Shown here one piece after another: positions 1 through 697 of a DNA stretch of 697 nt. A program made the translations under genes and the position numbers. Source of the stretch: Escherichia coli (GTDB lineage: Bacteria > Pseudomonadota > Gammaproteobacteria > Enterobacterales > Enterobacteriaceae); NCBI RefSeq assembly GCF_003334335.1, contig NZ_QOWQ01000156.1; one strand, given 5' to 3'. Position 1 is the first letter of the stretch. Each line of letters opens with the position of its first letter. The notes under the pieces are model-generated. The model searched no databases. It was not told the DNA's origin and was given only the letters and a program-made list of their open reading frames with translations.

Positions 1-697
1 CTGGACCGGCTGGTACAGCAGGGCGGCTTTGACGGGCGGACGCAACGTTATCATTATGACCTGACCGGAAAACTCACGCAGAGTGAAGATGAGGGGCTTA
101 TCACCCTCTGGCACTACGATGCGTCGGACCGCATCACGCACCGGACGGTGAACGGCGACCCGGCAGAGCAGTGGCAGTATGATGAGCACGGGTGGTTAAC
201 CACCCTCAGCCATACCAGTGAAGGCCACCGCGTGTCGGTCCACTACGGCTATGACGATAAAGGCCGCCTGACCGGCGAACGCCAGACGGTGGAGAACCCG
301 GAGACGGGGGAACTGCTGTGGCACCATGAGACCGGACATGCGTACAACGAACAGGGGCTGGCAAACCGCGTCACGCCGGACAGTCTGCCGCCGGTGGAGT
401 GGCTGACCTACGGCAGCGGCTATCTTGCGGGCATGAAGCTGGGCGGGACGCCGCTGCTGGAGTTCACGCGCGACCGCCTGCACCGTGAGACGGTGCGCAG
501 CTTCGGCAGCATGGCAGGCAGTAATGCCGCATATAAACTGACCAGCACATACACCCCCGCAGGCCAGTTACAGAGCCAGCACCTGAACAGCCTGGTGTAT
601 GACCGTGACTACGGGTGGAATGACAACGGCGACCTGGTGCGCATCAGCGGCCCGCGACAGACGCGGGAATACGGCTACAGCGCCACGGGCAGGCTGG
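1..697 (+). CDS. rhs: Rhs-family YD-repeat core protein, internal fragment (5' and 3' partial; codon phase 0 from nt 1, last complete codon ends at 696)
   Basis: Seen in sequence: frame +1 is open across all 232 codons, while frame +2 hits TGA at nt 59-61. The translation carries repeated YD-repeat motifs: RYHYDLTGKL (aa 16-25), LWHYDASDRI (36-45), WQYDEHGWL (58-66), VHYGYDDKGRL (80-90), LVYDRDYGWNDNGDL (198-212), EYGYSATGRL (223-232). Third codon positions are G/C-biased. Established knowledge: this motif and spacing define the Rhs/YD-repeat shell, and the peptide matches my recollection of the E. coli Rhs core. Paralog (rhsA/B/C/D-like) not resolvable without alignment, so the symbol is generic. 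Confidence 0.93.
   Translation, partial: MDRLVQQGGFDGRTQRYHYDLTGKLTQSEDEGLITLWHYDASDRITHRTVNGDPAEQWQYDEHGWLTTLSHTSEGHRVSVHYGYDDKGRLTGERQTVENPETGELLWHHETGHAYNEQGLANRVTPDSLPPVEWLTYGSGYLAGMKLGGTPLLEFTRDRLHRETVRSFGSMAGSNAAYKLTSTYTPAGQLQSQHLNSLVYDRDYGWNDNGDLVRISGPRQTREYGYSATGRL

What the first reader, a model, noticed from the sequence alone, without database searches (positions are those of the whole stretch)
1..697. Probable multi-copy sequence: recombination substrate and assembly hazard
In E. coli and relatives, Rhs cores exist as several near-identical multi-kb copies per genome. These act as substrates for RecA-dependent duplications, deletions and inversions, and for tip or orphan-toxin swapping. 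A 697-bp core fragment will probably map to several loci, so assigning it to one paralog, or trusting a short-read assembly around it, is unsafe.
Basis: established knowledge. Interest (0 to 1): 0.3.

Follow-up and report, generated by a model that had tools for sequence, protein, structure and literature searches.

The report
Paralog-specific island of rhsE/rhsD core
The window is an ordinary piece of an E. coli Rhs toxin gene (rhsE/rhsD type); unlike the identical sequence on either side of it, it is the one stretch that tells the two copies apart, and its ends fall exactly where a short-read assembler would break at that repeat.

Summary
The window is a 232-codon in-frame fragment of an E. 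coli Rhs core: aa 665-896 of the 1407-aa RhsE of ETEC H10407, RhsD-E subfamily. Paralogs exist (3864 of 5426 complete genomes hit, median 5 places per genome), but most are distant. In H10407 the window is 100% identical to rhsE and 91.7% to rhsD. K-12 rhsA/B/C are 77.4% identical.

At 95% identity or higher, the discriminating part (78-477) is single-copy in about 90% of the genomes that carry it. For window 196-477: 1049 genomes, 1134 places, maximum 2. Only the last 220 nt are usually duplicated (median 2).

In H10407, rhsD and rhsE have no differences over gene nt 1-1600 and 2701-3400. The window lies on the roughly 1-kb island between those tracts. A k=77 de Bruijn graph of H10407's rhsD and rhsE loci returns exactly this 697-nt sequence as one bubble arm. 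The window is therefore most likely a short-read contig cut at the repeat.

The same 697 nt sit in rhsE in some strains and in rhsD in SY3626. Strain 720632 has both (100% and 98.4%). That shows exchange between the paralogs.

Its prediction that this fragment maps to several loci at 95% or higher mostly fails. This is known biology of low interest.

The parts
1..697 (+). In-frame fragment (frame 1, 232 codons) of an Rhs core gene of the RhsD-E subfamily. It equals codons 665-896 of the 1407-aa RhsE of ETEC H10407 (gene nt 1993-2689) and encodes YD-repeat cocoon wall.
   Evidence: Open frame; RHS_core profile positions 669-899 of 1261; RHS_repeat; 100% identical to L001 12001-12697; position within the gene; best solved relative is Tse5, 8cp6_B residues 571-801.
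1..77 (+). Left 77 nt, identical in rhsD and rhsE of H10407 and in K-12 rhsD. This is the shared k-mer at the entry of the assembly bubble.
   Evidence: First difference from rhsD is at position 78; the k=77 unitig starts exactly at window position 1.
78..620 (+). Paralog-discriminating part of the divergent island: 57 (K-12) or 58 (H10407) substitutions against rhsD, no indels, mostly at third codon positions (12/8/37), giving 17 amino-acid changes against K-12 rhsD.
621..697 (+). Right 77 nt, identical in rhsD and rhsE. This is the shared k-mer at the exit of the bubble and the start of about 850 nt without any rhsD/rhsE difference.
   Evidence: Last difference is at 620 and the next at window-relative position 1469; the unitig ends exactly at 697.
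195..196 (+). Position of the K-12 rhsE truncation junction. A deletion of about 4.4 kb removes vgrG and the first 2187 nt of rhsE, so K-12 rhsE matches only window 196-697, at 100%.

Best explanation
The window is the middle of the core of a type VI secretion-associated Rhs toxin gene of E. coli, RhsD-E subfamily. It encodes part of the YD-repeat cocoon wall, upstream of the PxxxxDPxGL self-cleavage motif and the variable toxin tip.

In genomes such as ETEC H10407, rhsD and rhsE are exact repeats over 1.6 kb and 0.7 kb of core. They differ only in an island of about 1 kb and in the tips. The window is the rhsE-type version of that island. It is therefore the locally unique part of a repeat, not the repeated part.

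Its ends are not biological. They lie exactly 77 nt outside the first and last rhsD/rhsE differences, so the window is most likely a whole short-read contig: one arm of a k=77 de Bruijn bubble. It would come from a genome holding a full-length rhsE-type copy plus a K-12-type rhsD (inferred).

Across strains the island moves between the two loci by homologous exchange. This is inferred from mosaics, and the mechanism and direction are not shown. So the sequence alone does not say which locus it occupies.
For: Identity and family. The full H10407 gene scores 2768.8 bits on RHS_core (cut-off 2000). It carries Rhs_assc_core and the motif PIQVIDPMGL at aa 1249. VgrG lies upstream and a YdcD-family gene downstream.

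Subfamily: 100% to K-12 rhsE over window 196-697, 91.8% to rhsD, 77.4% to rhsA/B/C.

Island structure: H10407 rhsD against rhsE shows 0 mismatches over nt 1-1600 and 2701-3400, and up to 16 per 100 nt in between.

Copy number at >=95%.

Assembly origin: the k=77 unitig from H10407 L001+L012 equals the window. k = 21, 33, 55, 99 and 127 give 43, 220, 510, 864 and 1259 nt. The result is unchanged with both strands and K-12 rhsA/B/C added. Configurations like 720632, SY3626 and K-12 do not reproduce it. The record is only 697 nt long.

Exchange: the window is 100% identical at the rhsD locus of SY3626, whose rhsE element is deleted. 720632 rhsD is rhsE-like over nt 701-2400.

Background: rhs elements cause contig breaks and false polymorphisms in K-12 shotgun assemblies (PMC3045373).
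Against: The source record and its assembler are unknown. That k=77 is a usual final k of SPAdes-type assemblers is my own knowledge, not a tool result. Only the rhsD and rhsE loci of H10407, plus K-12 rhsA/B/C as stand-ins, were put in the graph, not a whole genome.

Copy counts at >=95% come from sub-queries with E-value cut-offs, not from whole-window alignments per genome. Intragenomic gene conversion cannot be separated here from import of a mosaic allele from another strain. Only four non-K-12 genomes were inspected locus by locus.
Confidence: 0.88

Rival explanations
1. One reading: in its own genome the window is one of several near-identical (>=95%) core copies, so it multi-maps as a whole.
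For: Strain 720632 has rhsE at 100% and rhsD at 98.4%. 85 of 1049 genomes have two places at >=95% for window 196-477. The last 220 nt have a median of 2 places.
Against: About 90% of carrier genomes have one place at >=95% for the discriminating part. In H10407 the next copy is 91.7%. A 720632-like genome gives a 1764-nt k=77 unitig, not the window.
Confidence: 0.08
2. The window sits at the rhsD locus, not the rhsE locus, of its source genome: an rhsD that has taken up the rhsE-type island, as in SY3626.
For: SY3626 carries the 697 nt at 100% inside rhsD between ybbP and ybbC. Two of the 40 listed 100% hits, SY3626 and MLI104K2, are annotated rhsD.
Against: 38 of those 40 hits are not annotated rhsD, and the three of them inspected lie at the yncH-ydcD site. 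In SY3626 there is no second D/E copy, so no bubble forms and the unitig runs on for the whole locus. A source with the rhsE-type island in rhsD and a rhsD-type island elsewhere was not observed.
Confidence: 0.1
3. The 77/77 symmetry is a coincidence and the window is an arbitrary cut from a longer sequence.
For: The provenance of the window is not given.
Against: Both the length (543 + 2 x 77) and the offset must match at once. Only k=77 of six k values reproduces it. The source length equals the window length.
Confidence: 0.04

Closest known systems
E. coli rhsE (K-12 b1456 pseudogene; full-length in ETEC H10407, ETEC_RS08345)
   Same: 100% nucleotide identity: the whole window in H10407, and window 196-697 in K-12. 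Same locus context, yncH-(vgrG)-rhs-ydcD-ISAs1/H-repeat-pptA.
   Different: K-12 lacks window 1-195 because of a deletion of about 4.4 kb. The same sequence can also sit in rhsD.
E. coli rhsD (K-12 b0497)
   Same: Same subfamily. Identical to rhsE over 1.6 kb and 0.7 kb of core in H10407. Identical to window 1-77 and 621-697.
   Different: 57-58 substitutions within window 78-620, giving 91.7-91.8% over the window. Different toxin tip from gene nt ~3400 onward.
E. coli rhsA/rhsB/rhsC (the classical near-identical rearrangement hot spots)
   Same: Same protein family and architecture. These are the copies that are near-identical to one another: A = B at 100% and C at 95.3% in the homologous stretch. 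They are the classical substrates of RecA-dependent duplication (Lin, Capage and Hill 1984, listed as a reference in PMC3045373; the RecA dependence is from my own knowledge).
   Different: Only 77.4% identical to the window, and the longest shared exact word is 30 nt. They are not mapping or recombination partners for this fragment.
Solved T6SS Rhs cocoon effectors (Tse5 8cp6, Tse15 8uxt, RhsA 7q97)
   Same: The window aligns to the mid-cocoon YD-repeat wall, for example Tse5 residues 571-801 with E 1.6e-23.
   Different: These are distant homologues from other genera. No structure of E. coli RhsD or RhsE was found.

Membership tests
RHS element core protein (NCBIfam NF041261, equivalog) | Whole protein scores above the curated cut-off (2000 bits) along the full 1261-position profile | tested here: met
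   The full H10407 gene that contains the window at 100% scores 2768.8 bits over profile 1-1261. The window alone scores 484.7 bits over profile 669-899, as expected for a fragment.
RHS element core protein (NCBIfam NF041261, equivalog) | YD/RHS repeats | tested here: met
   Pfam RHS_repeat; TIGR01643 within the window at 22.7 bits, cut-off 15.8.
RHS element core protein (NCBIfam NF041261, equivalog) | Core ends in the PxxxxDPxGL motif (Rhs-associated core domain), followed by a variable tip | tested here: met
   PIQVIDPMGL at aa 1249 and TIGR03696 at aa 1181-1258 of H10407 RhsE; the tip diverges from rhsD after gene nt ~3400. This lies outside the window.
T6SS-linked Rhs effector | Adjacent vgrG and a downstream small gene at the immunity-gene position | tested here: met
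   VgrG (TIGR03361, 624 bits) lies immediately upstream and a YdcD-family gene overlaps the 3' end. Secretion, toxicity and immunity were not tested.
RhsD-E subfamily of E. coli Rhs cores | Much closer to rhsD and rhsE than to rhsA/B/C | tested here: met
   100% to rhsE and 91.8% to rhsD, against 77.4% to rhsA/B/C.
   Not met in H10407, where the copies are 100% and 91.7%, nor in about 90% of carrier genomes for window 78-477. Met in a minority such as 720632, and met for window 478-697 alone.
Short-read assembly bubble arm (k=77) | The sequence equals a maximal non-branching path bounded by k-mers shared with a paralog | tested here: met
   The k=77 unitig from H10407 rhsD+rhsE is the window exactly, and other k values fail. 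The actual assembly graph and its coverage are not available.

The most novel reading that the evidence does not exclude
The roughly 1-kb divergent island, kept inside otherwise identical rhsD and rhsE cores and present in several allele classes (100%, ~96.7%, ~95.5% and ~86% over window 78-347), might be maintained by selection rather than being a leftover of incomplete homogenisation. For example, it could interrupt homology and so limit crossovers between the rhsD and rhsE loci, or it could adapt the cocoon wall to a given toxin tip. It is occasionally shuffled between loci by conversion.
Probability: 0.08. Interest if true: 0.35.

Novelty: already known. Interest (0 to 1): 0.15.

Why it matters
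The value is practical rather than biological.
- The multi-copy warning for Rhs cores has to be applied per segment and per subfamily. This fragment is the uniquely mappable part of rhsE/rhsD, and the hazard lies in the exact repeats just outside it.
- A short contig's ends can reveal its assembler's k and the paralog structure of the unseen genome. Here they imply a full-length rhsE-type copy plus a K-12-type rhsD.
- The same island occurs at either locus in different strains, so SNPs here should not be used to name the locus without flanking evidence.

Tried and rejected
- Rfam scan of both strands at E <= 1: no match.
- Internal repeats: only a 14-nt chance pair, with no inverted repeats.
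- Minus-strand ORFs, the longest being 95 aa at 196-483: treated as antisense open frames of a GC-rich coding region and not pursued.
- The search table lists one place per record, so per-genome copy identities could not be read directly. I worked around this with sub-queries plus strict E-value cut-offs and with synteny-guided fetching.
- The first guess for the SY3626 rhsE site missed by about 20 kb and was corrected.
- The literature search for an explicit report of rhsD/rhsE gene conversion found none. Jackson et al. 2009 discuss homologous recombination for tip displacement only.
- I considered that the window belongs to the near-identical rhsA/B/C set and rejected it, because identity is 77.4%.

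Full report
**What the window is.** The 697 nt are open in frame +1 from end to end; the other two forward frames contain stops. The 232-aa product matches NCBIfam RHS_core (NF041261) at profile positions 669-899 of 1261, with E 6e-145. It also matches YD/RHS repeat models. Its closest solved relatives are T6SS Rhs cocoon proteins, the best being Tse5 8cp6_B residues 571-801. No Rfam family matches and there is no meaningful internal repeat.

The window is 100% identical to genes annotated 'RHS element core protein' in many complete E. coli genomes. In ETEC H10407 it is gene nt 1993-2689, codons 665-896, of a 1407-aa protein. That protein scores 2768.8 bits on RHS_core against a cut-off of 2000. 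It carries the core-end motif PIQVIDPMGL at aa 1249. A VgrG gene precedes it and a YdcD-family gene follows it.

**Which paralog.** Three of the 100% hits I inspected (H10407, ZF34, 720632) lie at yncH-(vgrG)-rhs-ydcD-ISAs1-pptA, which is the rhsE site of K-12. Against K-12 MG1655 the window is:
- 100% identical to the rhsE pseudogene, but only over 196-697
- 91.8% identical to rhsD (57 substitutions, no gaps)
- 77.4% identical to each of rhsA, rhsB and rhsC

The near-identical K-12 copies are rhsA/B/C among themselves: A = B at 100% and C at 95.3% in the homologous stretch. They share no exact word longer than 30 nt with the window.

**Testing the multi-copy claim.** At low stringency the claim holds. 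3864 of 5426 genomes match, with a median of 5 places per genome. The best place is >=95% identical in only 768 of 3871 records.

The table gives one place per record. I therefore counted places at >=95% using sub-queries and E-value cut-offs set to about 95% identity over the full sub-query. The weakest hits listed confirm the calibration (95.2-97.7%).

| Window segment | Genomes | Places | Median | Maximum |
|---|---|---|---|---|
| 196-477 | 1049 | 1134 | 1 | 2 |
| 78-347 | 1826 | 2043 | 1 | 3 |
| 478-697 | 3223 | 5960 | 2 | 5 |

For window 196-477, exactly 85 genomes have two places. The central 400 nt are therefore single-copy at >=95% in roughly nine of ten carrier genomes, while the last 220 nt are typically duplicated.

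Individual genomes agree with this:
- H10407: rhsE 100% and rhsD 91.7%.
- 720632: rhsE 100% and rhsD 98.4%.
- SY3626: the window at 100% inside rhsD, with the whole rhsE element replaced by IS1.

**Anatomy of the repeat.** An alignment of full genes shows that H10407 rhsD and rhsE have no difference over nt 1-1600 and 2701-3400. They differ only in an island at nt ~1601-2700, with up to 16 differences per 100 nt, and in the tips from nt ~3400. The window lies on the island. Its differences from rhsD fall between positions 78 and 620 and are mostly at third codon positions (12/8/37), giving 17 amino-acid changes.

In 720632, rhsD is rhsE-like over nt 701-2400. In SY3626, rhsD is rhsE-like over nt ~1801-3400. 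Tracts with different ends, and the same island at two loci, show homologous exchange between the paralogs. Whether this is intragenomic conversion or import of mosaic alleles is not resolved.

**The window's ends.** The first and last differences from rhsD, at 78 and 620, leave exactly 77 shared nt on each side. I built a de Bruijn graph from the H10407 rhsE and rhsD loci. At k=77, the maximal non-branching path through the window's centre, including its junction k-mers, is exactly the 697-nt window. At k = 21, 33, 55, 99 and 127 it is 43, 220, 510, 864 and 1259 nt.

Adding both strands and the K-12 rhsA/B/C loci changes nothing. Configurations like 720632, SY3626 or K-12 do not reproduce the window. 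A ZF34 rhsE combined with a K-12-type rhsD does. The record is only 697 nt long.

I infer that the window is a whole short-read contig: one arm of a k=77 bubble, from a genome with a full-length rhsE-type copy and a K-12-type rhsD. That 77 is the usual last k of SPAdes-type isolate assemblies is my own knowledge. It also shows that the window is the unique interior, not the collapsed repeat. Every 150-nt read from the window has at least 2 differences from the H10407 rhsD copy, and 535 of 548 have more than 2.

**Comparison with the literature.** Rhs elements as rearrangement hot spots, and tip displacement by homologous recombination, are established (Jackson et al. 2009, PMC2935791; Lin et al. 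1984 and Hill et al. 1994, listed as references in PMC3045373). [quoted passage not shown] Nothing here lies outside that picture.

**Verdict.** The family, the recombination-substrate claim, the assembly hazard and the unsafe locus assignment are right. The expectation that this fragment maps to several loci at >=95% is wrong for most genomes, including the configuration that reproduces the window. This is already known biology of low interest. The one modestly useful point is that the contig's ends reveal the assembler's k and the paralog structure of the source genome.

Noticed in passing
window 195/196; L005 5891-5905 against L001 7766-12196: The K-12 rhsE pseudogene results from a deletion of about 4.4 kb, relative to H10407, that removes vgrG and the first 2187 nt of rhsE. 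The two alignment blocks overlap by 3 nt at the junction, which falls inside the window.
   Followed up: partly
L002 9517-14232 (strain ZF34): A different deletion of about 1.7 kb (H10407 L001 9181-10858) joins vgrG to rhs. The result is annotated as a single 4716-nt 'RHS element core protein' CDS, a possible VgrG-Rhs fusion or a dead gene.
   Followed up: partly
L011 24099-25843 (strain SY3626): The whole rhsE element (yncH, vgrG, rhs, ydcD and the ISAs1 copies) is absent, with an IS1 between pptA and yncG. The rhsE-type island survives only inside this strain's rhsD.
   Followed up: partly
window 78-347, across genomes: More than 1400 genomes, including O157:H7 and O111 strains, carry alleles 95-99% identical to this stretch, with clusters at about 96.7% and 95.5% at various chromosomal positions. 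The island is polymorphic with several allele classes.
   Followed up: no
window 1-697, plasmid records: 15 of the 19,551 megablast places are on plasmids; 5 and 6 plasmid places remain at >=95% for two of the sub-queries. Rhs core sequence on plasmids was not examined.
   Followed up: no
window 196-483, minus strand: A 95-aa antisense ORF with a GTG start is the longest ORF that the ORF lister reports. I took it to be a chance open frame opposite a GC-rich coding region.
   Followed up: no
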